DNA of 34,582 bases from a virus. The stretch lies in the UHGV virus genome UHGV-0129090; one strand, 5' to 3'. The notes under the pieces are model-generated. The model did not search any database. It saw only the letters and a program-made list of their open reading frames with translations, and had not been told where the DNA came from. This document shows positions 12,810 through 30,804 of the stretch, one piece after another. The stretch's first letter is position 1. Each line of letters begins with the position of its first letter. A program made the position numbers and the translations under genes.

Positions 12810-15800
12810 TTATTTATTCTGTGCAATTAGTAATTGAGTTACTACAGCACGTAGTTCATCTAGTTGTAGCTGTTGGTCTGCAATTTGTGCTTTTAGAGTA
12901 TCATTTTCTTTAGATAGTTCTTGGATTGCCGCAAGTCCGTCTAATAGCATTGGGGTTTGATCTAGATGATACAATTCACCAATTTTATTAACGTACTGTG
13001 GATCAATAGTCCTAATCTGTTGGCTAATTACACCGCGACGGGCTTTATCAGGGGTATCATTGAATGTAAAATCCTTAAATTCCATTCTATTGATATTTGA
13101 TAGAGCTACCTTAGTGTCTAAATCACTCTGGATAGTTTTAACAGACTGGTCAGATACTGCCGACATGGTTATTTGGTTCCATGCACTCCATGAGCTGTTG
13201 TTAGTCTGGATACGTGAGAATATACGGTTTGACGTATCATAGAAACGTTGTTGATACCATTGACCAGATACACCAGTTGCAGCACTAGGACCAGCATCTA
13301 GACCCTGCGTACATTGAGTGAATAGAGAGCCGTAAACACTACCCGACGTTGGGGCGTTAGACATAACACCGCCAGTATTTTTCCATCCTTGATACTGAAT
13401 GTTAAAATCATTACCAGACCCACCGTCTGTACTGTTACCGTTTGGTGCTAGGCCGCCATTATAGCCGACATACATCACTGTATTTGCCGATGGTTTGGCA
13501 AAACGTATAGTTTTACGGTTGGTAGTTGATGTATGACCATCCATAAAGAGATATAGACCATCCTCACCATTATTTTCAAAATATACACGTTTCCCAATAG
13601 TACCGTCGCCTACTCGGTTAGAGATAAGATAAACTCCGGGATAGTTGGCTTGTGCAACCAGTTTACTAGAAGAAATAATATCACCACTTGCCGTAACAGT
13701 ACCGGTAGATATTGATCCAGACGTTACAGTACCTGTTGTAGTCAATGATGCAGCATTAATACTATCAGTTGCTACAATAGATTCAGCATTTACACTACCT
13801 GTTGTAGTTAGTGATGCGGCGTTCAAACTACCTGTTGTAGTCAATGTACCCGTACTGGATAGATTACCCGTAACAGATAGATTTTTTAGAGTGGTATTTG
13901 CTGCTGCTGTACTAAGTGTATCCGTACTAGCTGTATATTTAATTACATCAAATGTATCATTTTTAGATAATGTAATATTACCAGCCGTTCCAATTAGTGA
14001 ATATTTTGTAGCACCTGTTCCCGTTTGATTGAGAATAAATGCAGGTGATCCACCTTCAATTGTAATTGGTGATGTTACTTTACCAGTGATTGATAGATTA
14101 CCATTAAATGATTGAGTACCTGCCCATGTATTAGCTAGATTCAGTGCTGGAATCTGATTCCATGTTCCATGTGTGCCAGCTTCGATAGTACGGAAGAATG
14201 CTTTATTCTGTCGGCCTACAATCTGGAAACCATAATTACCACTAAAGCCAGTATGAGTACCACCATAAACGTTAGCACCGTCTGGACCATTCACACTACC
14301 AGCCAGAAATCTACTACGGTTAATAATGGACGTTTGACCGTTCCAGTCCTGACCAGTTGAAGATAAAAATCCATTTGGTGAACTAAATGTACCATCGCTA
14401 TTAAAGTTGAAGAATTGAGTAGTATCACTTGAAGTAACGCCACGCCATACTAATTGAATTGCACCGTCGCTAGTTCTAAATTCTGATTGAGATTTAGTAG
14501 TTTTATCTGCATTCAATTGTTTTGATACAAAGGTAAAATCATTTACACCAGTACCGGAAGCAATAAAACCGTTACCCGCTTCAATATTACCACTAAAGGT
14601 TAATTTAGGAGATGTAATTGTTAGGTTATCGCCAATATTCATCCCATTTGAAAGTACAGCACGACCGCCACCACCGATATAATAGTTTGGTGTAGTAGTA
14701 GAACTATTGGACATATAAAAGCCAGGACGAGCTTGTCTAAAATCGAATAATGCACGTGTTCCGTTTGCTACTGCGGTACTCATTGGATCTTCTACGCCCC
14801 ACGGATAAACTACATCAGTCCCAGCGGTATATGATGCCGTTGGTGCAAATGCGGTACAGAATGCGGGTATCCTCATACGTACTGGGAACGCTCGACCCTC
14901 TACATATACTGCCATCTTATCTTCTGCAATCTTCGCACTAACTAGAATACAGTTAAGTGCTTTTTCAGTTGGTGCATAGCAGTTATAGTAACCATAGCCA
15001 GCATCACCGCGATCTGTCCATCCACCAGCACGTACGAAGCCGTTAAACTGTGCGGAGTTCATTGGATCACCACCAGAAGACGATTTAGTATATAGGTCGA
15101 TATGTGCACCAGTAGAAGAAATATTTTCATAGGATAGATCAATAATTACTGGATAGTATTTGTCTGCTTCCACTCCCGGAGGTGCCGGAATTGCGATTAT
15201 TTGACCACTACCAACGGTAGGGGCTTTAATATTATTTCTAGCAGTAGTAACGTCTGCTACATCACTTAGATTACTTGCAATTTTCAATTGTGCATCATTG
15301 GTTACATTACTTAGTCCTACATCACCTTTAGTGATTGAGATATTACCAGTAAGTGCTTTGCCATTAATAGTAGTAGTTTTTGGTACATATAGATTACTAA
15401 CTTCGGAAGAAGAAAGAATACCTAAGTTTGTTCTCGCCTGTGCTGCCGTACTTGCACCAGTACCGCCCTGTAGAATTGGTAATGCGTATGGTGCGTTGGC
15501 TGTGCCGTTCCATACTCCCCAGGTGCCATCGTTCTTAACAAATAAACGCATATTACCATCACCGGATACTACGCGAGTTTCTCCAACTGGATTAGCGTAT
15601 TCTTGGAAACGGCTTAAACCTAAGTTAGTACGGGCAACTGATTTATCAGCCACATCAGCAAGGTTACTTGCAATTTTCAACTGTGCATCATTGGTTACAT
15701 TACTTAGTCCTACATCACCTTTAGTGATTGAGATATTTGTAGTAAGTGGTCTACCGTTAATAGTACGGGATAATGGCACATACTGATCACTAATCTGAGT

Positions 15801-16511
15801 TGCAGTAAGTATACGCGTCCATGCTGTATTCTGGTTCTTTGCATAGATTGCCAATGTACCGGATTTAGTCATTGCAATACTGGAGAATGTACCGGAATCG
15901 ATAAGACCAATACCCATTAGATCCGCACTAGCTGGGTTATCATTGCGTGCTGCTGGTACTTTGATAAAACTGTTGCCATTTGGTAACTGTGGTTCGTACT
16001 GTGGTACGTCTACGCCGTTACTACCTACGCCATATGATCCTACAACTAGTCCGGTACTCAATGGTGCTTGACCATCACGTACTAGAACGTCGGTAGGGGT
16101 AAAGGTATATGATTTAGTAACTACTGAGTCTTTATCACCAGCAAGGCGAGCGGAACTAATCATACCATTCACCATACTATAGGAGATGATACCATCAGTT
16201 ACGGCGTACTGTAGTGTTAGCTGGAACTCGGTCTGATCTTCGGTCGCTTGGTCTAAAAATGCGTGAGCGGTGCAATCTGGTACGTAGTTAACAACAATAT
16301 CAATATCGTTTACGTTCTGTTCTGCGAGTAGTTTCTCTGAAAATTCACTGTTATATACTTCAATAGATTGTACTTGGCTATCAATACCGAATGAAGGCAT
16401 CGCCGCCAATTCATTTACTAGTTCATTCCCTGCGTTATCGGGGATACGGTTTGCGGTGTCGTCATTATAGAATAATTTAAAACCACTCCCTGTAAAAATT
16501 TGATCTGCCAT
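12810..16511 (-). CDS. Tail fibre protein with N-terminal major-tail-protein-like domain, tandem fibre repeats and C-terminal intramolecular-chaperone (peptidase S74-like) region
   Basis: 1233 aa; residues about 1-150 align with the 152-aa major tail protein; duplicated ITKGDVGLSNVTNDAQLKIASNL motif; Gly/Ser/Thr-rich shaft; C-terminal coiled coil. Confidence 0.7.
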   Translation of the reverse strand: MADQIFTGSGFKLFYNDDTANRIPDNAGNELVNELAAMPSFGIDSQVQSIEVYNSEFSEKLLAEQNVNDIDIVVNYVPDCTAHAFLDQATEDQTEFQLTLQYAVTDGIISYSMVNGMISSARLAGDKDSVVTKSYTFTPTDVLVRDGQAPLSTGLVVGSYGVGSNGVDVPQYEPQLPNGNSFIKVPAARNDNPASADLMGIGLIDSGTFSSIAMTKSGTLAIYAKNQNTAWTRILTATQISDQYVPLSRTINGRPLTTNISITKGDVGLSNVTNDAQLKIASNLADVADKSVARTNLGLSRFQEYANPVGETRVVSGDGNMRLFVKNDGTWGVWNGTANAPYALPILQGGTGASTAAQARTNLGILSSSEVSNLYVPKTTTINGKALTGNISITKGDVGLSNVTNDAQLKIASNLSDVADVTTARNNIKAPTVGSGQIIAIPAPPGVEADKYYPVIIDLSYENISSTGAHIDLYTKSSSGGDPMNSAQFNGFVRAGGWTDRGDAGYGYYNCYAPTEKALNCILVSAKIAEDKMAVYVEGRAFPVRMRIPAFCTAFAPTASYTAGTDVVYPWGVEDPMSTAVANGTRALFDFRQARPGFYMSNSSTTTPNYYIGGGGRAVLSNGMNIGDNLTITSPKLTFSGNIEAGNGFIASGTGVNDFTFVSKQLNADKTTKSQSEFRTSDGAIQLVWRGVTSSDTTQFFNFNSDGTFSSPNGFLSSTGQDWNGQTSIINRSRFLAGSVNGPDGANVYGGTHTGFSGNYGFQIVGRQNKAFFRTIEAGTHGTWNQIPALNLANTWAGTQSFNGNLSITGKVTSPITIEGGSPAFILNQTGTGATKYSLIGTAGNITLSKNDTFDVIKYTASTDTLSTAAANTTLKNLSVTGNLSSTGTLTTTGSLNAASLTTTGSVNAESIVATDSINAASLTTTGTVTSGSISTGTVTASGDIISSSKLVAQANYPGVYLISNRVGDGTIGKRVYFENNGEDGLYLFMDGHTSTTNRKTIRFAKPSANTVMYVGYNGGLAPNGNSTDGGSGNDFNIQYQGWKNTGGVMSNAPTSGSVYGSLFTQCTQGLDAGPSAATGVSGQWYQQRFYDTSNRIFSRIQTNNSSWSAWNQITMSAVSDQSVKTIQSDLDTKVALSNINRMEFKDFTFNDTPDKARRGVISQQIRTIDPQYVNKIGELYHLDQTPMLLDGLAAIQELSKENDTLKAQIADQQLQLDELRAVVTQLLIAQNK

Positions 16512-22977: not shown

Positions 22978-23455
22978 AACCGCCGATTTCTTCTAACTGG
23001 CGGTCTATCTTGTCCTGTAATTTAATTTTTAGTTCTAGAGCGTCCTGTGATTCAAATAGTTCTACATAACTTGCCGCCGGAATACTTCTTAGTACCTGAC
23101 GTAGTTGATAGAAATATTGTGATAATGTTTGCTGTACTACTGCTACCGGAATTAGTTCTCCAGATTGCTGGCGTAGTTCTAATTCTTTTAGGTCTGCTTC
23201 TGCTTCCAGTTTGCGTAGGGTTGCTTTATGAATCATTCCCTTTACATCACCATTACGCATGGGTTCGATTACGTTCGCCAATAGCCAGTCGTCTACTAAT
23301 TTCTTAGGCCAGCTAATATCCAGTCCTTTACCAGACCAGATACGGGATACTGTGGAATGTTCTACCCCGAATCTGTCGGCAATTTCTTGCCATGAATAGC
23401 GGGTTCCATCGTCTTTATTTTTTGCCATGTGATTTCCTATGCATATTTTATTCAC
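22859..23455 (-). CDS. Terminase small subunit (helix-turn-helix DNA-binding)
   Basis: N-terminal YSWQEIADRFGVEHSTVSRIW helix-turn-helix, acidic C-terminus; first gene of the late operon after a 290-bp non-coding region. Confidence 0.55.
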   Translation of the reverse strand: MNKICIGNHMAKNKDDGTRYSWQEIADRFGVEHSTVSRIWSGKGLDISWPKKLVDDWLLANVIEPMRNGDVKGMIHKATLRKLEAEADLKELELRQQSGELIPVAVVQQTLSQYFYQLRQVLRSIPAASYVELFESQDALELKIKLQDKIDRQLEEIGGYEYEGTYEEQLPEDDEDPNEGGEVNPTSEETTTSGLGRE

Positions 23456-23743
23456 TTTTGATTGATTGGTATTTTCTATCTATTTCGGTACTGATAGATT
23501 TTATCTATAGATTTGTTTGTTTTATGTAAAATTTCTCACGTATTTTTATTATAACTCGCGGCCAAACTTCGCATAGTTTGGCCTATTCAGGAGAACCTAC
23601 CTAAAGTCAAGGGAGTGATTCCATTTTTTTATCTTTTATTTAATATAAAGCACAAATTGCACAAAATCTTGATAGCTTTTACATATCAGTACCGAAGTAT
23701 ACCATCATTCTATTATTCACTGTTTATGCATTGTCTATGCAAT

Positions 23744-24130
23744 CTACTTGAGTATCACCATATTACTAACGATTACATCACAACGATAAGAGATAGGCAG
23801 ACCATCTACGGTACGGTACTGTAAGATCTCGTCGCGTAGTTCCCTTAGTCGGGTTAAGTGTGGTAGCTCACTACCGCTGAATGTATCTAGTGCATTGATA
23901 GGGTAATTAGTACGGCCTATGGTGAAGCGTGAGTAGTTTAATGTAATGTATTTATACTTAAGCGTTAGTGTATAGGTATCTATGAATAGCTCGTAACCGT
24001 CCTGTGTGATGATATGAGCGGTTATTAGCTTATCCTTGCGTGATGGTATGTATCCTGATTCCTGTCGGCCTGTGGTGCTTTCTATGGCCTTATACGTTCC
24101 ATCAGGGAAGTGTAGGTAGATTGTATTCAT
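23744..24130 (-). CDS. Hypothetical protein
   Basis: 128-aa ORF, minus-strand early region. Confidence 0.4.
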   Translation of the reverse strand: MNTIYLHFPDGTYKAIESTTGRQESGYIPSRKDKLITAHIITQDGYELFIDTYTLTLKYKYITLNYSRFTIGRTNYPINALDTFSGSELPHLTRLRELRDEILQYRTVDGLPISYRCDVIVSNMVILK

Positions 24131-24176
24131 GGTGTGATACTCCTATAGCATGTATAGGAGTATTTAGGGGATGGGA

Positions 24177-24833
24177 TTACTTGAAGTGGCGTTTACCAGT
24201 ATAGCTAGTTACGTATTCAGTATAGCCAGGTATATGTACTGGTGATTGATCTTGTAGCTGTTCTGCCGTTCCATCTGTGAATACTACACGATTTGGATGT
24301 GGGGCACATGGTTTATAGTGTTGTAGGATAAATTCTTTATTATCACTATATTGTAATGAGTCATAAGCTACTACACGTTTGCGATCTTTTAGATATACAT
24401 CATACTTCATTTCTTCCTGTACATCTGGCGGTAGATCTTTGAACAATAAGTTTTCATCAGTAGATATAGTTACGGTTATCTTTGATTTTAGTTCTAATGC
24501 GTAGTGAACTAATACACCGCCAAAATAACGATTAGTACAGCCATGATAATCACCATATAGAGAAGAATAGATAATTGAATCTAGTGCCTCTATTGGATCG
24601 TCTAACCGTTCTGATACTATTTTACGATGTTCATGACGTAAGCGGGATAGATTATCACGGATTTCTACGCAGTCTTCGCTGAGATAGAAACGATAACCTT
24701 TACCTAAATTGAAATGACCTACCCCGATTAGTTCGAATCCCGGCTTACTGGAAGGACGAATATCAATAGTACATGTAAGTCCTTTGCGGTGATCGTGCAT
24801 AATAAATTCTTCAAATAGTTCTTTACCTGTCAT
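24177..24833 (-). CDS. Hypothetical protein
   Basis: 218-aa ORF; no recognisable motif. Confidence 0.45.
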   Translation of the reverse strand: MTGKELFEEFIMHDHRKGLTCTIDIRPSSKPGFELIGVGHFNLGKGYRFYLSEDCVEIRDNLSRLRHEHRKIVSERLDDPIEALDSIIYSSLYGDYHGCTNRYFGGVLVHYALELKSKITVTISTDENLLFKDLPPDVQEEMKYDVYLKDRKRVVAYDSLQYSDNKEFILQHYKPCAPHPNRVVFTDGTAEQLQDQSPVHIPGYTEYVTSYTGKRHFK

Positions 24834-24886
24834 TATATTTTTCCTCGTTAGATTGAATAGCCCACTGTGAGTAGTGGGCTAGATTA

Positions 24887-25360
24887 TTAGTTGGTTACTG
24901 TCATTGATAGAAGGCGAACTATAATTTCTGCTGCATCGCCTGTAATAGTGGTTGGTGGGTTATTATTTGGATCATATACCGTCACACTATTATAATCAGT
25001 GGGTACTACACGACCTATACCGGATAACCTTGCAGCATGGTAATCAGTGTTTTCAAATACACGATCTTCTTCTAATACATTATGAAAGCAAAACGTACCT
25101 AATGCTAAATCACTAATTTGATCTGGTTTAGTAGTGGGATTAGTACAGCGATTCTGTGCGAAGCTATGAAAAGCTGCTGCATCATCGATATGATCACCCC
25201 AATGTGATTTTTTATCGGTGTTTCCCTCATACCATGAATCATTATTCTCTACTACTGTATGACCAGTTTTAGTATTGTGTACTAATACAATTTCATTAGT
25301 ACGGCTACTTAGTGTCACTTCTACATCTGGAAGTGAAGGAATGTTTTTTATAATTTTCAT
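24887..25360 (-). CDS. Hypothetical protein
   Basis: 157-aa ORF; stop followed by conserved hairpin module. Confidence 0.45.
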   Translation of the reverse strand: MKIIKNIPSLPDVEVTLSSRTNEIVLVHNTKTGHTVVENNDSWYEGNTDKKSHWGDHIDDAAAFHSFAQNRCTNPTTKPDQISDLALGTFCFHNVLEEDRVFENTDYHAARLSGIGRVVPTDYNSVTVYDPNNNPPTTITGDAAEIIVRLLSMTVTN

Positions 25361-25411
25361 TTACTTTCCTTATTAGATTAAAAAGCCCACTAATAAAAGT
25401 GGGCTATATTA

Positions 25412-25621
25412 TTAGTTAGTATCGAATAATGGCGGTATTTGTGGTATTTCTACTTCCCCTTCAATTGGTTTGCCGTATTGGTCTGCTACCTTTATTACAG
25501 TTTCCTTATAAGGATTAATACTATAATAGTGTTGATGGTCTTCGGTACTAACAATGATACGCTCAATACTCATATTATATTCCGTGATATTACGGATTGC
25601 TTTAATTAGTTTCTCTGACAT
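25412..25621 (-). CDS. Hypothetical small protein
   Basis: 69-aa ORF; stop followed by the same hairpin module as 24887-25360. Confidence 0.4.
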   Translation of the reverse strand: MSEKLIKAIRNITEYNMSIERIIVSTEDHQHYYSINPYKETVIKVADQYGKPIEGEVEIPQIPPLFDTN

Positions 25622-25630
25622 ATATATCCC

Positions 25631-26017
25631 TTATTTTATTTTAACGCAGTTTTGAAAGTAGTAATTACGAGTATCAGATCTCAATAAGAAGATAAAAGTA
25701 ATATCGTTTTGCTCTTTACTTCCCATTGTTGCAAGGAAGTATCGCTGCCTATCATTATCATAAGCCATTGTCATTGAATCATTAGATTCTATTGGTCCGG
25801 TGGCGTGAGTCATTGCACCGAAGTTAAGGATAAAACCATCACTATTAACTTTAGCGTGACCTGCACCAGAATAAGAAGATTTTTCTACTGGAGTATCACC
25901 CAGCATTTCAACTACTTTCACATCACATTGATACAATCCCTGCTCTGGTAGAGAGTGAGTGTTAGCCAGTACCGAAGGAGCTACTAACAGTAATGCAGAT
26001 ACGATAACCTTTTTCAT
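25631..26017 (-). CDS. Secreted/periplasmic protein with N-terminal signal peptide (paralog A)
   Basis: MKKVIVSALLLVAPSVLA signal sequence; two Cys; paralogous to 26027-26407. Confidence 0.55.
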   Translation of the reverse strand: MKKVIVSALLLVAPSVLANTHSLPEQGLYQCDVKVVEMLGDTPVEKSSYSGAGHAKVNSDGFILNFGAMTHATGPIESNDSMTMAYDNDRQRYFLATMGSKEQNDITFIFLLRSDTRNYYFQNCVKIK

Positions 26018-26026
26018 TTCTATTCC

Positions 26027-26407
26027 TTATTCAATAATACAATTGGAGAAGTTCAAAAATACGGGATTATTCTCATTGCTGACCATATACTGTGTTTTAC
26101 CATCGATTGCACTAATAATAATATCGTACTGGTCAGTATCTACGGCATAGGCCATCAGGCGACCGCTTTTAAGTTTTGAAACAGGGCTGAATGAAATATT
26201 CACATCCCTAAACTTCACACTAACAGCACGGTTATCAATACTCACATAACCAGTCATACCATAATAACCAGTCTTTACTACTCGCTTTCCTACCTGTTCC
26301 CACGATTCAACACCGCAACGATACAGACCATCATCAGGGAGTATTACATTTACTGCCAGTACCGAAGGGGCTACTAACAGTAATGCAGACAGTACAATCT
26401 TTTTCAT
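26027..26407 (-). CDS. Secreted/periplasmic protein with N-terminal signal peptide (paralog B; track ORF 26027-26419)
   Basis: MKKIVLSALLLVAPSVLA signal sequence nearly identical to paralog A at nucleotide level; shared LP-x-x-GLY-x-C and NC-[VI] motifs. Confidence 0.55.
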   Translation of the reverse strand: MKKIVLSALLLVAPSVLAVNVILPDDGLYRCGVESWEQVGKRVVKTGYYGMTGYVSIDNRAVSVKFRDVNISFSPVSKLKSGRLMAYAVDTDQYDIIISAIDGKTQYMVSNENNPVFLNFSNCIIE

Positions 26408-26586
26408 AAATTCATCCATTCGGGATTATCTACTTTATCAGAATCAATGGCATTGTTGATGCCAGATAATGACAGTGTTTTTGATTACGGCGACTGCAAT
26501 TTAATAAGTAGGGTTAATGTATTTTATTATATCATAGTAATATGCAGTCCCCATAACTAAAAGTACGGCAAATATTGTTTTCTTCA

Positions 26587-26967
26587 TCACAGATTATCGT
26601 CTATATAATTAGTTGGTTTCGAGAACTCAAATTCTGTACCGTAATTATTTGAACGATCAACTATCTTAGTGGTGTTTTTGTGGGGGCCGTGGGCTTTATG
26701 TTCTTCGAAGCTATGAATATTTGTAAGTCGGTCGGCGGCAATAATACAGCTACCAGTAGATGGGCGTTCTTCACCCAATAGCATAGGCTGACAATCACTA
26801 CTGAATTGTGGGCGATACTCTTTACCACCATTTACGGGGAATAATACTAGTGTACGACCGTTAATATCACCTACTACGGCTTCATTCATAAAAGCAGGCG
26901 TTATAGTAGTACAGCCAGTAGTGATTGTAGCCGTAGCGAGTACAGCTAGGGCAAAGAGATGTTTCAT
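26587..26967 (-). CDS. Putative lipoprotein
   Basis: MKHLFALAVLATATITTGC: signal peptide ending in a lipobox-like TTGC. Confidence 0.5.
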   Translation of the reverse strand: MKHLFALAVLATATITTGCTTITPAFMNEAVVGDINGRTLVLFPVNGGKEYRPQFSSDCQPMLLGEERPSTGSCIIAADRLTNIHSFEEHKAHGPHKNTTKIVDRSNNYGTEFEFSKPTNYIDDNL

Positions 26968-27075
26968 TAGTAAATCCTTGTAGTGATTGTGTGGAGTGAT
27001 GCTTGATGTGAATTATTATAGCTATGATATTTAGTAATAGCTACTACTTTATTTGTGTAGTAGCTATTATTATTC

Positions 27076-27759
27076 TTATACTACCTTATAGGCTTTAGTA
27101 ACAAGCTCTTTGAAGTCTTGCTCGTCGGCCTGTTTAGGATACTGCTGCTTGTACTCGGCGTAGTATTCTTGTGCTTTCGCGTTCATCTTCCCTTTCTGGT
27201 TTAGATGGAACTCATGACCGTTCCACTTCGCATTAAGCGGGTATTTTTTGCGATAGTCCTCACTATACGCCCGTAAAAACTCGTCAACGTCCGATAGTTC
27301 GGGATTCTTCTTAACCAACTGAATGTATACTTCATCCTTGAGTAATGCCGCTGGTAACTTCTTATTGATTACATTATAGGTTCTTCTTTCGTCCTTCTTG
27401 CTATCAACTATGACTACTTCGAATATCTTATTACCGTTTGGCTTCGATGCTTTTTGTGGTATGGAAGCAGGAGAAGATACGGCAAGTGTAGAAAGCAGTT
27501 CCTCTACACTAGAGAAGCTACCAGACTCTTGTACAAGTGATTCTAATAGCTTCTTAGCTTCGTTTAGTCGCTCGGTACGTAGTGTGCTTACATAGTCCTT
27601 CACTTCGCCCAGGCGTTGAATAAGTGTATCTATATCTTCTTCGTTGACGTTTGCCAGTGCATTGCGGCCTGTTGCGTCGGCAGTCAACATACCTACATTA
27701 AAATCATCATTCAGAATCGTACTGATCATTTTTGCGGTAATGCTTTTAATGCTTCCCAT
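27076..27759 (-). CDS. Hypothetical protein (227 aa)
   Basis: Largest ORF of the early region; Lys/Glu-rich C-terminus; no confident motif. Confidence 0.45.
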   Translation of the reverse strand: MGSIKSITAKMISTILNDDFNVGMLTADATGRNALANVNEEDIDTLIQRLGEVKDYVSTLRTERLNEAKKLLESLVQESGSFSSVEELLSTLAVSSPASIPQKASKPNGNKIFEVVIVDSKKDERRTYNVINKKLPAALLKDEVYIQLVKKNPELSDVDEFLRAYSEDYRKKYPLNAKWNGHEFHLNQKGKMNAKAQEYYAEYKQQYPKQADEQDFKELVTKAYKVV

Positions 27760-27947
27760 AATACAGCCTCATTTGGTTTTAACAGTAACTGAGTACAATC
27801 GGTTAGTTTATCTAGATTTGCAAGTGGGATCTCCTTCAAAGTGTTTATCATCTCACTGGTAAGACCAAATTCACTTAGTAGATCTTCTTCGGAAAGTTTC
27901 CGTACTGTATCTATATAGAGCACGTTTAGCTCATTAAGATCATTCAT
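27726..27947 (-). CDS. Hypothetical small protein
   Basis: 73-aa ORF overlapping neighbours at both ends. Confidence 0.35.
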   Translation of the reverse strand: MNDLNELNVLYIDTVRKLSEEDLLSEFGLTSEMINTLKEIPLANLDKLTDCTQLLLKPNEAVLWEALKALPQK

Positions 27948-28228
27948 AGCTTAATGTTCACGCGTTTTCTAGTTAGTAAGTTCAATAGTGCTTCGTTATA
28001 GGTAGTGTGCCACGTCTTACCATCACTAAAAGGCTTATTGATGTGTCGGGGATGCTTAGACATAGTGACCGCCCCTACCTTTCGGTTGTGATCGTCGAAA
28101 ACTTCGGTTATAAGTCCACCAGCAATACAACTAATACGCATGTAAAGATCCCAGCAATGAAGAAAAAGAAATTTGCAGCCGCAAGGTAAGTAAAGGTTAA
28201 TTTTTTCATAGAGTGTCCATATTAACAC
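27944..28228 (-). CDS. Hypothetical small protein (start uncertain)
   Basis: 94-aa track ORF with several internal Met. Confidence 0.3.
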   Translation of the reverse strand: MLIWTLYEKINLYLPCGCKFLFLHCWDLYMRISCIAGGLITEVFDDHNRKVGAVTMSKHPRHINKPFSDGKTWHTTYNEALLNLLTRKRVNIKL

Positions 28229-28264
28229 TACCAGTATATTTCCGGTACTAGTAGTGTAAATTGA

Positions 28265-28558
28265 TTAATGTACGTTAGTAATTTCTTCGGATACTACTTC
28301 TAGTAATGAAGCGAAAGCACGTTCACCATCGAATCGGGCAATAGTGATCTTATCGGTTACACTCTTAGGTAGATTGATGTTCTTTTCCCAATGGAACAAG
28401 CCACCAGACATAAGAAACATACTGAATAATTCACGCTCATTATGACGGGAACTAATTACTACATGAAACATTCCCGTTACACGATTATCAATCTCGTTAA
28501 TCTTGAATCCTAAATCATGTGCCTTAATGATCAAATCAGTAGATACACCCTTAGACAT
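28265..28558 (-). CDS. Hypothetical protein, divergent from 28800-28982
   Basis: 97-aa ORF; upstream region contains promoter/operator-like elements. Confidence 0.4.
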   Translation of the reverse strand: MSKGVSTDLIIKAHDLGFKINEIDNRVTGMFHVVISSRHNERELFSMFLMSGGLFHWEKNINLPKSVTDKITIARFDGERAFASLLEVVSEEITNVH

Positions 28559-28654
28559 TTTCGATACTCCCTACGATTAGTAACAAGGTTATGATGACTA
28601 CAAATAGTACATGCTCTTTAGTGATAGTGAACGTCATGTTGTGTCCTCGTTGTA

Positions 28655-28686
28655 TTGACACCACTGATACTAGGATCATTAGTATC
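28655..28686 (+). promoter_or_regulatory. Candidate sigma70-type promoter (TTGACA -35) overlapped by palindrome GATACTA-N7-TAGTATC (operator-like)
   Basis: ttgaca at about 28655-28660; perfect 7-bp inverted repeat at about 28666-28686; sits in the divergent intergenic region. Confidence 0.35.
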
Positions 28687-28799
28687 TAACGTCAACACTA
28701 GTTACTAAAATAATTTATTAGTAGAAAACGCTTGATAGTAACTAACGGTAGTGTATACTGTCTTTATTGAAGCAAAACACTACTACGAAGGGATATATA

Positions 28800-28982
28800 A
28801 TGAATACAGTAACTTACTTAGAACGCGGTAACATCACTGATATCATGGTTAACGATGTATATATGGGGGCGGTAGTAAAAGGTGACGATAACAAATATCG
28901 TACCGTACATAAGAACAATGCAGAATCTGGTACGTTTACTGCTTTCCACTTCGCAGCGTACCATGTAGAAAAAGCAGTATGA
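28800..28982 (+). CDS. Hypothetical small protein (track ORF from alternative start at 28767; ATG at 28800 has a better ribosome-binding site)
   Basis: gaaggg about 8 nt upstream of ATG at 28800; one of only a few plus-strand genes; followed by terminator. Confidence 0.4.
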   Translation: MNTVTYLERGNITDIMVNDVYMGAVVKGDDNKYRTVHKNNAESGTFTAFHFAAYHVEKAV

Positions 28983-28993
28983 TAGAAACGATG

Positions 28994-29018
28994 AAGCCCA
29001 CATTAAGTGGGCTTTTTT
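28994..29018. terminator. Rho-independent terminator (bidirectional, between convergent genes)
   Basis: Stem aagcccac / gtgggctt with loop attaa, then tttttt. Confidence 0.65.
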
Positions 29019-29527
29019 GTCTTGTGTGGTTTCTTAGTCTTCGGTACTGGTACTGCTTCTTCCTCTGTAACGTCCTGTACGCCCCTTAGAATGCGTTCTA
29101 CTTCCTCGGCGTTGCGTTGTACGTCTGTATAGATTCCTTCTGCTACGTAGCGTTCTAGACCCTCTACGTTGGGGATTCCGTGGCTGGCGACCACACCATC
29201 CACATGATGAATATGTAGGTCCAGTCCACCATTGATACGGGCACGGAAGTTATACGGGTTATTATTCAGTATTTCGATTTGCATTATTTTTACTCCATTG
29301 ATTATACAGTCTGACATAAAGATTATTTCATCCAGATCATCCATGACTACGGACAACTGGAAGTATTCTGCCTCATTCAGTCCTAGATAGTAATCAGGGG
29401 GATGATCGTACTTGATAGTATTATTTAGTAGTATGCCTTTACGATTGACTGCATAACGTCTGGCTAACTTGTAGTCATTGAATATCAAGCCACGTGGGTT
29501 ATTGTATATTATTTTTAGTTTTCTCAT
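29003..29527 (-). CDS. Hypothetical protein
   Basis: 174-aa ORF; Lys/Pro/Thr-rich C-terminal tail. Confidence 0.4.
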   Translation of the reverse strand: MRKLKIIYNNPRGLIFNDYKLARRYAVNRKGILLNNTIKYDHPPDYYLGLNEAEYFQLSVVMDDLDEIIFMSDCIINGVKIMQIEILNNNPYNFRARINGGLDLHIHHVDGVVASHGIPNVEGLERYVAEGIYTDVQRNAEEVERILRGVQDVTEEEAVPVPKTKKPHKTKKPT

Positions 29528-29840
29528 TGGGTATCCATTGGTAAGTAATTTGTCCTTTGACGTGTTTTAGTATTTCTATCTGCACCTTCTGTACTAATTC
29601 TGCATCGTATAGAGTACATTCTTGAAAGAGCATTTCTTCCGTGTACTCCGTAAGTAGTTTTCGTGGTATTTCTTGCGTATATGTTCTTTCAGTCCACCTA
29701 TTGTTAATGTAGTCATACATGAAAGATAGTTCTCCACTTGCGAAGATGTATAGTCCTTGTGATGGGAAGTGATTCAGTACGGCATCATGATAGTTATGGG
29801 AGTATCCCCAATGCGTCTGTTTACTGCTTATGTATTTCAT
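29499..29840 (-). CDS. Hypothetical protein
   Basis: 113-aa ORF overlapping downstream gene. Confidence 0.4.
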   Translation of the reverse strand: MKYISSKQTHWGYSHNYHDAVLNHFPSQGLYIFASGELSFMYDYINNRWTERTYTQEIPRKLLTEYTEEMLFQECTLYDAELVQKVQIEILKHVKGQITYQWIPNEKTKNNIQ

Positions 29841-30149
29841 TTTTTCTTTTTCCTTATTGATAGTTAATTATTCGGTACTGTCGCCGCCCGTTCCACTCCG
29901 TCGCCGCGTCCAACTCACAAAATATATGAGGAAGCACTTTGATAGTAGTAATGAGAACTACACCTACTGGATCGAGCAAAGCGAAGGGAGAACGCTTGCG
30001 GGATTCCGTAGCGATAGCGAGGAAAACGCAATGTTAGGTGTAATAATTAAATAATTTCAAAGACTCGCTCTGTCGAGGCTTTCTAATTACTTAACTATTT
30101 CTTCCTGTTCTATTAAGACATACTAAAATGAAAAATTATATTATATTAA

Positions 30150-30320
30150 GGGGGGCTAATGCACCAATCGCCCATAAAATTTCAAATCCATTTCAGAAAA
30201 GCCTGTAATATCAAGGGTTTGCGGCCTATTTTGCGTGTGGGTTAATCCCATTAGCCCATACAAATCAATCCCAATAGCCCATAATTAGCATATATGTATG
30301 GGCTAATAGGGGCTAATGGT
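30150..30320. repeat. Cluster of short repeats (GGGCTAAT / ATTAGCCC and AATCCCAWTAGCCCATA) in a non-coding region
   Basis: GGGCTAAT at about 30153, 30300 and 30310; reverse-complement copies at about 30250 and 30274; 17-bp direct repeat at about 30244-30260 and 30267-30282. Confidence 0.5.
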
Positions 30321-30321
30321 A

Positions 30322-30804
30322 TCATAACAATCCCGATAGATATTTGATTAGATCATTAATCGGGATGTTAGAATCAATCTTCTGTACTAACACTTCTTTT
30401 TGTTTCTCGTCTAGTTGCTTTCCTGATACCTGGCTAACTACACGTTTCATTGAGTTTTTTAGCGGTATACCCTGAATGATTAGTAGTTCTAATGCCTCTG
30501 ATACTTTCTTACATACTGTTTTATACTTAGTTTCCTGTGAATCACCCTGCATCTGTGGTTTTCCATTATGTAGACTACGCATAGTATTGATCGTATGTAG
30601 TGTTAGTGATTTAGTGATGTAATCACATTTTCGTATAACTTCGAATATTTCCTCTGAATCTACTTTATTACGTCCTAAAGATTTACAATTTTGAATTGCA
30701 TTATTGATTGCCTGAGTAGCTTCTAATGATAGTTCTTTGAATTTTATTTTCTTTACTTCTTTGTACACAATACTGTTATTGTGTGGTTTTTCCATGTTAG
30801 CCAT
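30322..30804 (-). CDS. Hypothetical protein adjacent to repeat cluster
   Basis: 160-aa ORF. Confidence 0.4.
   Translation of the reverse strand: MANMEKPHNNSIVYKEVKKIKFKELSLEATQAINNAIQNCKSLGRNKVDSEEIFEVIRKCDYITKSLTLHTINTMRSLHNGKPQMQGDSQETKYKTVCKKVSEALELLIIQGIPLKNSMKRVVSQVSGKQLDEKQKEVLVQKIDSNIPINDLIKYLSGLL

What the first reader, a model, noticed from the sequence alone, without database searches (positions are those of the whole stretch)
24859..25421. Repeated 40-bp hairpin module at gene ends
The sequence agcccact-N6-agtgggcta(g/t)attattagtt(g/a)gt occurs twice (about 24859-24896 and 25384-25421), each time overlapping the stop codon of a minus-strand gene. A third hairpin with the same stem (aagcccac...gtgggctt) forms the terminator at 28994-29018. 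Reuse of an identical stem suggests a mobile or duplicated terminator cassette, or a site for a stem-specific RNA-binding or processing factor.
Basis: seen in the sequence. Interest (0 to 1): 0.4.

Follow-up and report, generated by a model that had tools for sequence, protein, structure and literature searches.

The report
Duplicated terminator hairpin flanking an optional prophage gene
The repeated hairpin is this E. coli prophage's own ordinary transcription-terminator unit, now present on both sides of an inserted gene of unknown function at a spot where related phages gain and lose genes, so it is a tidy example of phage mosaic evolution and not a new kind of element.

Summary
A 56-nt direct repeat (24840-24895 and 25365-25420, 80% identical) brackets the 157-aa ORF. 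On the sense (minus) strand each copy reads: last two codons, TAA TAA, AGCCCACT-N6-AGTGGGCT hairpin, U-rich tail, Shine-Dalgarno of the next gene.

The window is a ~33-kb prophage inserted in E. coli yegD. In relatives whose neighbouring gene is only 51-68% identical in protein, a hairpin plus T-run sits at the same place. It lies just upstream of a conserved SD-sequestering hairpin, a 128-aa gene and the terminase genes. Its stem is often AGCCCAC but sometimes differs while still pairing, so it behaves as an intrinsic terminator.

Close relatives show four gene arrangements, and their breakpoints fall at the module edges. ORFs or other DNA are inserted after this terminator in several lineages.

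The third hairpin (28993-29015) is a separate plus-strand terminator between convergent genes. Its stem differs, with compensating changes, in relatives.

AGCCCACT-N6-AGTGGGCT occurs in at least 119 unrelated viral contigs as a generic terminator stem. A stem-specific factor and a dispersed mobile element are therefore not supported. The module resembles T4-type PeSL cassettes but has no promoter.

Verdict: ordinary, low interest.

The parts
25365..25420 (-). Module H2. Sense strand: ACT AAC TAA TAA TAT - AGCCCACT TTTATT AGTGGGCT - TTTTAATCTAATAAGGAAA. It comprises the end of the 69-aa ORF with a double stop, the hairpin at 25384-25405, a U-rich tail, and the SD of the 157-aa ORF.
   Evidence: D7; -14 kcal/mol. 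It is the counterpart of the conserved terminator upstream of the 128-aa gene in relatives.
24840..24895 (-). Module H1. Sense strand: ACC AAC TAA TAA TCT - AGCCCACT ACTCAC AGTGGGCT - ATTCAATCTAACGAGGAAA. It comprises the end of the 157-aa ORF with a double stop, the hairpin at 24858-24881 (9 bp including an extra U-A pair), a degraded U-tract, and the SD of the 218-aa ORF.
   Evidence: (-15 kcal/mol). The orthologous module in L157 still has TTTTCAAT.
24887..25360 (-). 157-aa ORFan bracketed by H2 and H1. It is an optional gene, absent in arrangement types C and E.
   Evidence: (only 3 homologue clusters).
24177..24833 (-). 218-aa ORFan downstream of H1. In every arrangement that has this gene, the hairpin module precedes it.
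25412..25621 (-). 69-aa ORF whose stop codon lies in H2. H2 follows this gene in both types A and C.
24169..25376 (.). 1,208-bp segment (157-aa ORF + H1 + 218-aa ORF) that is absent from type C relatives. It lies between the T-run of H2 and the conserved palindrome.
24137..24163 (-). Conserved hairpin ATACTCCTATA-N5-TATAGGAGTAT whose 3' arm contains the AGGAG Shine-Dalgarno of the 128-aa gene. It forms the right-hand border of the insertion hot spot.
   Evidence: -12.9 kcal/mol, z -4.9; I16.
23744..24130 (-). Conserved 128-aa gene, used as the anchor to find relatives. It is followed by a non-coding region and the terminase small and large subunit genes.
28993..29019 (+). Third hairpin, GAAGCCCAC ATTAA GTGGGCTTT followed by TTTG. 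It is the intrinsic terminator of the plus-strand 60-aa gene, lies between convergent genes, and holds the stop codon of ORF 29003-29527 in its loop.
   Evidence: (-17.9 kcal/mol).
28800..28982 (+). 60-aa plus-strand gene that the third hairpin terminates. It is annotated in RefSeq and conserved in relatives.

Best explanation
The two modules are paralogous copies of the phage's own intrinsic-terminator unit: double stop codon, 8-9-bp GC-rich hairpin, U-rich tail, then the ribosome-binding site of the next gene.

In this family of yegD-type serine-integrase prophages, one such terminator closes the string of small accessory genes. It sits just upstream of a conserved SD-sequestering hairpin, a 128-aa gene and the terminase block. 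The few bases between the terminator's T-run and that hairpin are an insertion hot spot.

In the window's lineage two ORFans (157 aa and 218 aa) sit there, and the terminator unit now lies on both sides of the 157-aa ORF.

- H2 keeps CUUUUUAAUCU and probably still terminates or attenuates sense transcription.
- H1 has AUUCAAUCU and is more likely leaky, or acts as a 3'-end stabiliser.
- The third hairpin is an independent terminator for the antisense 60-aa gene and shares the stem only because AAGCCC..GGGCTT stems are generic.

Shown: the repeat, the folds, conservation of position, compensatory stem changes, and indel breakpoints at module edges. Inferred: termination activity, and the order of the insertion events.
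For: - **Repeat and folds:**
- **Host and element:** E. coli prophage in yegD with serine recombinase, terminase, portal, capsid and tail genes.
- **Conserved position:** a hairpin plus 5-8 T lies directly upstream of the palindrome and 128-aa gene in L012/L162, L139-L142, L159-L161, L134, L156, L158, L138 and L173. Stems are AGCCCACT, AGCCCAC, AGCCCC/GGGGCT, AGCCUC/GGGGCU and CCAGC/GCUGG. Pair 6 is A-U, G-U or C-G.
- **Sense-strand pairing:** L152 carries A>G in the 5' arm of H2, which gives G-U in the sense RNA only.
- **Four arrangements among close relatives:**
  - A: 69-H2-157-H1-218
  - B: 152-157-H1-218
  - C: 69-H2-palindrome
  - E: 152-H-218
- **Breakpoints and identity jump:** breakpoints fall at window 24168/9, 24890/1, 25372/3 and 25376/7. 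Identity to L012 is 88.8% on one side and 97.5% on the other.
- **Insertion into the T-run:** in L157 a remnant of the ancestral T-run and spacer (TTTATTCCTGCC) lies downstream of the 218-aa gene, so that gene went into the T-run.
- **Other lineages also carry inserts after the terminator:** a 92-aa ORF in L175, a 76-aa ORF in L132, and non-coding inverted repeats in L142 and L134.
- **Third hairpin:** compensatory changes in L065 and L132. In L010 a G>A change keeps pairing only in the plus-strand RNA, the strand that carries the T-run.
Against: - No transcript data, so termination is inferred from sequence alone.
- H1 lacks a proper U-tract.
- Both modules lie inside a co-directional gene string, where a strong terminator would cut off downstream genes unless it is read through.
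- The origin of the second copy is not resolved.
- The similar 3' flanks (AATCTAA..AGGAAA) and the 8-nt direct repeat CAATCTAG around the hairpin in L157 are not explained by simple insertion into a T-run.
- The AGCCCAC stem and even the loop AATCAC are better conserved across diverged relatives than a plain terminator needs. This could reflect an additional constraint or recent exchange.
Confidence: 0.7

Rival explanations
1. PeSL-like shuffling cassette. The two 56-nt modules act as portable homology. Recombination between them, or with the same module in a co-infecting relative, inserts, excises or swaps the ORFans they flank, as T4-type promoter-early stem-loop cassettes do.
For: - A 56-nt, 80% identical direct repeat brackets an ORFan.
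- Three of the breakpoints between arrangement types lie at module edges.
- The H2 3' flank resembles the H1 3' flank, as expected if the H2-157 junction arose by a crossover within a module.
- The AGCCCAC hairpin is an island of conservation in otherwise diverged relatives.
- The PeSL precedent is described in PMC2839356 and PMC4122927.
Against: - The predicted H2xH1 deletion product (69-H-218) was not seen in the distinct contexts returned for the 69-aa and 218-aa proteins.
- In type B the 157-aa ORF has no module upstream. Types B and E differ by an insertion between a stop codon and the hairpin, with no module duplication.
- The 218-aa gene appears to have been inserted into the T-run, not exchanged through homology.
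- No sigma-70 promoter reaches 9 of 12 in either module.
- There are only two copies.
Confidence: 0.25
2. One reading: the identical stem is the recognition site of a stem-specific RNA-binding or RNA-processing factor that acts at all three hairpins.
For: The identical 7-bp stem occurs three times in one prophage against none in shuffles. The AGCCCAC stem persists in relatives whose neighbouring protein is only 51-63% identical.
Against: - The third hairpin's stem differs, with compensating changes, in L065, L132 and L134.
- At the H2 position other lineages use AGCCCC, AGCCUC, CCAGC or ATACCCTCAT stems.
- The stem with an N6 loop is found in at least 119 unrelated IMG/VR contigs, almost always with A-run or T-run flanks.
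- There is no Rfam family hit.
- The loops differ among the three hairpins, and the H2 loop is found in both orientations.
Confidence: 0.05
3. An autonomous miniature mobile element (MITE- or REP-like 'terminator cassette') that inserts itself at gene ends.
For: In L157 the hairpin is flanked by a perfect 8-nt direct repeat, CAATCTAG ... CAATCTAG. The same repeat matches at 6 of 8 positions around H1 and H2 in the window, which resembles a target-site duplication.
Against: - The module is not dispersed. In 5,426 E. coli genomes it was found only inside the one other prophage copy this search detected.
- It gave no hit in GenBank phages or JGI metagenomes.
- In IMG/VR it occurs only in L011 and L012, which are the same prophage.
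- At 22-23 nt it is far smaller than known MITEs.
- Type C and all distant relatives have the hairpin without the direct repeat.
- No transposase or RAYT-like gene was noticed in the window; only some of its ORFs were scanned against family libraries.
Confidence: 0.04
4. A DNA-level operator: the inverted repeat TAGCCCA..TGGGCTA binds the phage protein that recognises the TATGGGCTAAT repeats clustered at 30160-30330.
For: TAGCCCA occurs 8 times against 3.3 expected. Six of those lie in the H1 and H2 hairpins or in the 30250-30305 repeat cluster.
Against: In L134 the cluster motif is TATGAGGCTAAT and in L065 it is GTTCCGATTGTTG, yet both keep an AGCCCAC hairpin, so there is no co-variation. The flanking T/A of the 7-mer is absent in L139 and L159. 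The enrichment is weak: 3 of 100 shuffles reach 8.
Confidence: 0.03

Closest known systems
Rho-independent (intrinsic) transcription terminators, including bidirectional ones between convergent genes
   Same: A GC-rich 8-9-bp stem with a 5-6-nt loop and a U-rich tail (H2 on the sense strand, the third hairpin on the plus strand). The position is right after stop codons. In homologues the structure is kept through compensatory changes. The same AAGCCCAC..GTGGGCTT shape is seen in many unrelated phages.
   Different: H1 has lost most of its U-tract. H1 and H2 lie inside a co-directional gene string rather than at an operon end. The unit is duplicated together with its flanks.
PeSL (promoter-early stem-loop) cassettes of T4-type phages (PMC2839356, PMC4122927)
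   Same: Repeated intergenic units containing a terminator-like stem-loop and ending in the SD of the next gene. They flank ORFans in a hyperplastic region, and indels between close relatives end at the units (searches compared).
   Different: There is no sigma-70 promoter or AT-rich UP element in the module. It is 56 nt rather than about 100. There are two copies rather than dozens. The host is a temperate siphovirus-like prophage, not a T4-like myovirus. No product of recombination between the two copies was found.
Morons of lambdoid phages (PMC3594210)
   Same: Extra ORFs present in some relatives and absent in others, lying between genes that are adjacent elsewhere, with a terminator-like hairpin next to them.
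   Different: No own promoter is detectable. GC content does not differ from the neighbourhood, at 0.36-0.38. The hairpin appears to be the resident terminator rather than one brought in by the insert.
Short conserved 'boundary' or 'linker' sequences at module junctions in lambdoid phages (Clark et al. 2001 and Susskind & Botstein 1978, as cited in PMC3029335)
   Same: A short conserved sequence at a gene boundary in otherwise diverged relatives, coinciding with mosaic junctions.
   Different: Here the conserved sequence has an obvious function of its own as a terminator. At least some of the junctions look illegitimate rather than homologous.

Membership tests
Intrinsic (Rho-independent) terminator | Stable GC-rich stem-loop in the transcript | tested here: met
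   Folding energies are -14.0 (H2), -15.0 (H1) and -17.9 (third hairpin) kcal/mol, with z-scores from -2.2 to -4.6. All three were also flagged by the terminator scan.
Intrinsic (Rho-independent) terminator | U-rich tract immediately 3' of the stem on the transcribed strand | tested here: inconclusive
   H2 has CUUUUUAAUCU on the sense strand, and the third hairpin has CUUUUUUG on the plus strand, so both meet the criterion. H1 has CUAUUCAAUCU, a poor tract; its orthologue in L157 has UUUUCAAU.
Intrinsic (Rho-independent) terminator | Structure maintained by compensatory change in homologues | tested here: met
   At the H2 position, pair 6 is A-U, G-U or C-G, and whole stems are replaced in L138, L156, L158 and L175. 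At the third hairpin the top pairs are AC/GT, CG/CG or CT/AG.
Intrinsic (Rho-independent) terminator | RNA 3' ends map to the U-tract | not testable with these tools
   No transcriptome data are available here. Term-seq or 3' RACE is needed.
PeSL cassette (T4-type phages) | Strong sigma-70 consensus promoter within the unit | tested here: not met
   No minus-strand promoter-like site reaching 9 of 12 lies in either module. The total number of promoter-like sites equals the shuffle expectation, 45 against 47.3.
PeSL cassette (T4-type phages) | Stem-loop plus the SD and start codon of the downstream gene at the 3' end | tested here: met
   Each hairpin is followed by AAGGAAA or GAGGAAA and an ATG within 27-29 nt.
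PeSL cassette (T4-type phages) | Indels and replacements between close relatives end in the units | tested here: met
   Breakpoints at 24890/1, 25372/3 and 25376/7 lie at module edges.
PeSL cassette (T4-type phages) | Recombination between flanking units (deletion products, mini-circles) | tested here: inconclusive
   No 69-H-218 product appeared among the contexts returned. Circles cannot be tested in silico.
Moron | Own promoter and terminator, and GC content different from neighbours | tested here: not met
   There is no promoter. GC is 0.357-0.382 across 24-26 kb, like the rest of the prophage. A hairpin is present, but it is the resident one.
Moron | Extra DNA between genes that are adjacent in related phages | tested here: met
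   Window 24169-25376 is absent from L012 and NZ_CM151386.1.
MITE/REP-like mobile element | Multiple dispersed copies in host or related genomes | tested here: not met
   copies occur only inside this prophage lineage.
MITE/REP-like mobile element | Target-site duplication | tested here: inconclusive
   An 8-nt direct repeat, CAATCTAG, flanks the hairpin in L157 and matches at 6 of 8 in the window. It is absent in type C and in distant relatives.
Lambdoid boundary/linker sequence | Short sequence conserved at a gene boundary among otherwise diverged phages, coinciding with mosaic junctions | tested here: met
   An AGCCCAC hairpin plus T-run is kept in L173, L134, L159 and L139, where the neighbouring protein is 51-63% identical. 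Junctions map to it.

The most novel reading that the evidence does not exclude
The conserved terminator hairpin is more than a passive landmark: it is the landing pad, or the portable homology, that drives ORFan gain and loss in this family of temperate phages. That would make it a promoter-less counterpart of T4-type PeSL cassettes. The 8-nt direct repeat around the hairpin and the in-place loop inversion would then be traces of hairpin-provoked DNA breakage or template switching.
Probability: 0.2. Interest if true: 0.45.

Novelty: new member of a known kind. Interest (0 to 1): 0.2.

Why it matters
This locus gives a clean, base-pair-resolved example of how accessory ORFans accumulate next to a conserved terminator in a little-studied group of E. 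coli and enterobacterial prophages. Four arrangements and their junctions can be read directly from the sequences.

If recombination at the hairpin were shown experimentally, PeSL-style modular shuffling would extend from virulent T4-like phages to temperate siphovirus-like prophages.

As it stands, the finding mainly shows that reuse of one stem sequence in a genome does not imply a stem-specific factor. AAGCCCAC..GTGGGCTT is a generic terminator shape.

Tried and rejected
- **Tandem gene duplication:** the 157-aa, 218-aa and 69-aa proteins show no similarity to one another.
- **Known RNA family:** Rfam gave no hit at gathering threshold over the whole window, nor at E <= 1 over 23300-29300.
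- **Function of the flanking ORFs:** no Pfam, PHROG, NCBIfam or PADLOC hit for any of them.
- **Known phage:** megablast of 23000-30000 against 50,697 GenBank phages found nothing.
- **Dispersed repeat:** blastn of the modules against E. coli genomes and phages found only the prophage itself. The scan of JGI metagenomes for the module with its 3' flank gave 0. The scan for the 5' flank in IMG/VR gave only the same prophage plus three unrelated chance hits.
- **Relatives in the one-genome-per-species collection:** the 128-aa profile found none. A profile scan of IMG/VR added nothing beyond the single-sequence scan.
- **Link between the stems and the TATGGGCTAAT repeat cluster at 30160-30330:** rejected because the two do not co-vary in L134 and L065.
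- **Formal covariation count:** the MAFFT alignment of the short hairpins (A3) misaligned the three divergent stems, so pairs were tallied from individual folds instead.
- **Predicted H2xH1 deletion product (69-H-218):** not found among the contexts returned.

Full report
**1. The observation**

The stem pattern AGCCCAC-N(3-12)-GTGGGCT occurs three times in the window: 24859-24880, 25384-25405 and 28995-29013. It never occurred in 100 dinucleotide-preserving shuffles.

It is 56 nt long (24840-24895 and 25365-25420), 80% identical, with 525 bp between starts (family D7).

All genes here are on the minus strand. Read on that strand, the two modules are:

- H1: ACC AAC TAA TAA TCT AGCCCACT-ACTCAC-AGTGGGCT ATTCAATCTAACGAGGAAA..ATG
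- H2: ACT AAC TAA TAA TAT AGCCCACT-TTTATT-AGTGGGCT TTTTAATCTAATAAGGAAA..ATG

Each module therefore contains the last two codons and a double stop of the upstream ORF (157 aa or 69 aa), the hairpin, a tail, and the Shine-Dalgarno of the next ORF (218 aa or 157 aa). The 3' flank motif occurs nowhere else in the window. All three hairpins fold as expected, at -15.0, -14.0 and -17.9 kcal/mol.

**2. Context**

The window is a prophage of about 33 kb with about 38% GC. It encodes a serine recombinase, terminase, portal, capsid, tape-measure and tail-fibre proteins. It is inserted in E. coli yegD.

It is rare among complete E. coli genomes: a 2.4-kb query from this region matched 2 of 5,426. It does recur in many draft assemblies and metagenomes.

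The ORFs around the modules have no hit in Pfam, PHROGs, NCBIfam or PADLOC. The 157-aa protein has only three homologue clusters in 5.8 billion sequences. The 157-aa, 218-aa and 69-aa proteins are unrelated to one another, so the repeat is not a remnant of a tandem gene duplication.

**3. The third hairpin is a different object**

Its T-run is on the plus strand, and it follows the plus-strand 60-aa gene (28800-28982). That gene is annotated in RefSeq and conserved in relatives. The stop codon of the convergent minus-strand ORF 29003-29527 lies in its loop.

In relatives, the base of the stem (AAGCCC/GGGCTT) is constant but the upper pairs change in a compensating way:

| Source | Upper stem |
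|---|---|
| Window | AC/GT |
| L065 | CG/CG |
| L132 | CT/AG |
| L134 | shorter GCCCC/GGGGC stem |

L010 carries a G>A change that keeps pairing (U-G) only in the plus-strand RNA. The identity of this stem with H1 and H2 is therefore specific to this lineage. Beyond the generic AGCCC/GGGCT base it amounts to two extra base pairs.

**4. The stem is generic**

Nearly all have an A-run on one side or a T-run on the other, which is the usual look of intrinsic terminators. Rfam has no family that matches.

**5. H2 is the resident, conserved terminator of this phage family**

I used the 128-aa gene (23744-24130) as an anchor and collected relatives whose protein is 51-91% identical.

In most of them a hairpin with 5-8 T lies just upstream of a second conserved hairpin, (A)AATACTCCTATA..TATAGGAGTA, which holds the SD of the 128-aa gene. 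The terminator stems are:

| Stem | Loop | Loci |
|---|---|---|
| AGCCCACT | AATCAC | L139-L142, L159-L161 |
| AGCCCAC | AATCAC | L134 |
| AGCCCAC | TTAACC | L173 |
| AGCCCACT | AATAAA | L012, NZ_CM151386.1 |
| AGCCCC/GGGGCT | GGTTA | L156 |
| AGCCUC/GGGGCU | CTAAC | L158 |
| CCAGC/GCUGG | CTAAAC | L138 |
| ATACCCTCAT/ATGAGGGTAT | | L175, and L132 (stem one base shorter at its 3' end) |

Position, stability and T-run are conserved while the sequence can change. That is what an intrinsic terminator predicts, and it is not what a sequence-specific recognition site predicts. One polymorphism, L152 A>G in the 5' arm of H2, gives G-U in the sense RNA only.

**6. The modules sit at mosaic junctions**

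Close relatives (86-97% nucleotide identity) show four arrangements:

- A: 69-H2-157-H1-218-palindrome-128. This is the window and most loci.
- B: 152-157-H1-218. No hairpin precedes the 157-aa ORF (L006, L008/L013, L147, L150, L151).
- C: 69-H2-palindrome-128 (L012, NZ_CM151386.1).
- E: 152-H-218-128 (L157).

The breakpoints in window coordinates are:

- 24168/24169, at the edge of the palindrome;
- 25376/25377, in the T-run of H2;
- 25372/25373, at the SD after H2;
- 24890/24891, at the 5' edge of H1.

Identity to L012 changes from 88.8% to 97.5% across the indel.

In L157 the 218-aa gene is followed by TACCCCCTCC-TTTATTCCTGCC-TAAATACTC. The remnant of the ancestral T-run and spacer therefore lies downstream of the gene, which means the gene was inserted into the T-run of the resident terminator.

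Other lineages also carry inserts between terminator and palindrome:

- a 92-aa ORF in L175;
- a 76-aa ORF in L132;
- long non-coding inverted repeats in L142 and L134.

 This point is an insertion hot spot.

**7. How the duplication arose is not settled**

The similar 3' flanks of H1 and H2 would fit a crossover within a module in a donor that had X-H-157-H1-218. That would be PeSL-like.

Other facts point the other way. Type B has the 157-aa ORF with no module upstream. Types B and E differ by an insertion between a stop codon and the hairpin, without module duplication. The predicted H2xH1 deletion product (69-H-218) was not recovered.

One detail remains unexplained. In L157 the hairpin is flanked by a perfect 8-nt direct repeat, CAATCTAG, which matches at 6 of 8 positions around H1 and H2 in the window. 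This looks like a target-site duplication or a microhomology junction.

**8. Likely function**

H2 (8-bp stem, CUUUUUAAUCU) looks like a working, moderate terminator or attenuator for sense transcription. H1 has gained one pair (U-A) but lost the U-tract (AUUCAAUCU), so it is more likely leaky or a 3'-end stabiliser. The third hairpin terminates the antisense 60-aa gene. None of this can be verified without transcript 3'-end data.

**9. Rejected readings**

- A stem-specific factor: see sections 3-5.
- A dispersed mobile element. The module with its flanks is found only in this prophage lineage.
- An operator related to the TATGGGCTAAT repeat cluster at 30160-30330. There is no co-variation in L134 or L065.

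**10. Comparison with known systems**

- The hairpins meet the sequence criteria of intrinsic terminators, except for the U-tract of H1.
- They resemble PeSL cassettes of T4-type phages in being repeated stem-loop plus SD units that flank ORFans at indel junctions (PMC2839356, PMC4122927). They lack the defining sigma-70 promoter, so they are not PeSLs.
- They do not meet the moron definition of own promoter plus deviant GC (PMC3594210).
- They fit the older idea of short conserved boundary sequences at lambdoid module junctions (as cited in PMC3029335).

**11. Verdict**

The element is a new member of a known kind, of low general interest. It gives a clear local picture of ORFan insertion next to a conserved terminator.

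Noticed in passing
window 25392-25397 (H2 loop); L011 3162-3167; L012 3921-3926: The loop of H2 exists in both orientations with identical stems and flanks. On the sense strand it reads TTTATT in the window and 25 other loci, and AATAAA in L011/L136 (type A), L012/L137 and NZ_CM151386.1 (type C). Four coordinated changes give the exact reverse complement, so this is an in-place inversion of the hairpin loop. AATAAA matches the orientation of the ancestral AATCAC loop.
   Followed up: partly
window 24137-24163 (minus strand): The hairpin ATACTCCTATA-N5-TATAGGAGTAT lies immediately before the 128-aa gene, and the AGGAG Shine-Dalgarno sits in its 3' arm. It is conserved in most relatives examined (not in L132). 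L157 and L134 carry C>U changes that keep pairing only as G-U, which favours an RNA structure (translational control) over a DNA operator.
   Followed up: partly
L157 2230-2285: A perfect 8-nt direct repeat, CAATCTAG, flanks the hairpin with 23 nt between the copies. It is degenerate (6 of 8) around H1 and H2 in the window and absent in type C and in distant relatives. It is either TSD-like or a microhomology junction, and remains unexplained.
   Followed up: partly
window 30160-30330: A non-coding cluster of direct and inverted repeats of TATGGGCTAAT / ATTAGCCCATA, iteron- or operator-like. The equivalent region in relatives has different repeats (L134 TATGAGGCTAAT, L065 GTTCCGATTGTTG, L132 CTCGCAAGATGGTGCG). 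This looks like a specificity determinant for a regulator or replication initiator.
   Followed up: partly
window 25631-26419 and 26587-26967; L006 9533-9991: A run of small ORFs lies here. The 126-aa ORF (26587-26967) and the 152-aa gene of type B begin with lipoprotein-type signal peptides. The neighbouring 128-aa (25631-26017) and 130-aa (26027-26419) ORFs share a 53-nt repeat covering their first codons (25965-26017 and 26355-26407, 89% identical). Type B relatives replace 25373-26188 with other genes, so the whole stretch is a hyperplastic accessory region.
   Followed up: no
window 23456-23743: A conserved non-coding region between the 128-aa gene and the terminase small subunit gene. 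It carries the motif TAGGTTCTCC (also present in L134, L132 and L162) and the hairpin GGCCAAACT..AGTTTGGCC. It is possibly the cos site or a late regulatory region.
   Followed up: no
L142 ~1200-1310; L134 ~9340-9440: Non-coding inserts with long inverted repeats (AAAGATGACAAAT..ATTTGTCATCTTT and CTAAAAGTGCATCTTT..AAAGATGCACTTTTAG) lie between the conserved terminator and the SD hairpin. This is the same spot where the window carries ORFans.
   Followed up: no
L132 ~8488-8520; L175 ~2650-2685: A second terminator 'allele', ATACCCTCAT..ATGAGGGTAT (the L132 copy ends one base short) plus seven T, is shared by two otherwise diverged relatives. In L132 it follows the homologue of the 157-aa gene, and in both an ORF starts directly after the T-run.
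   Followed up: no
window 15253-15421 and 15646-15814: A 169-nt direct repeat, 80% identical, inside the 1,233-aa tail-fibre gene (S74 peptidase type).
   Followed up: no
window ~700 and ~33800 (prophage ends): The prophage splits yegD and uses a large serine recombinase. The 2.4-kb query from this region (24100-26500) matched only 2 of 5,426 complete E. coli genomes, but the prophage recurs in many draft assemblies and gut metagenomes.
   Followed up: partly
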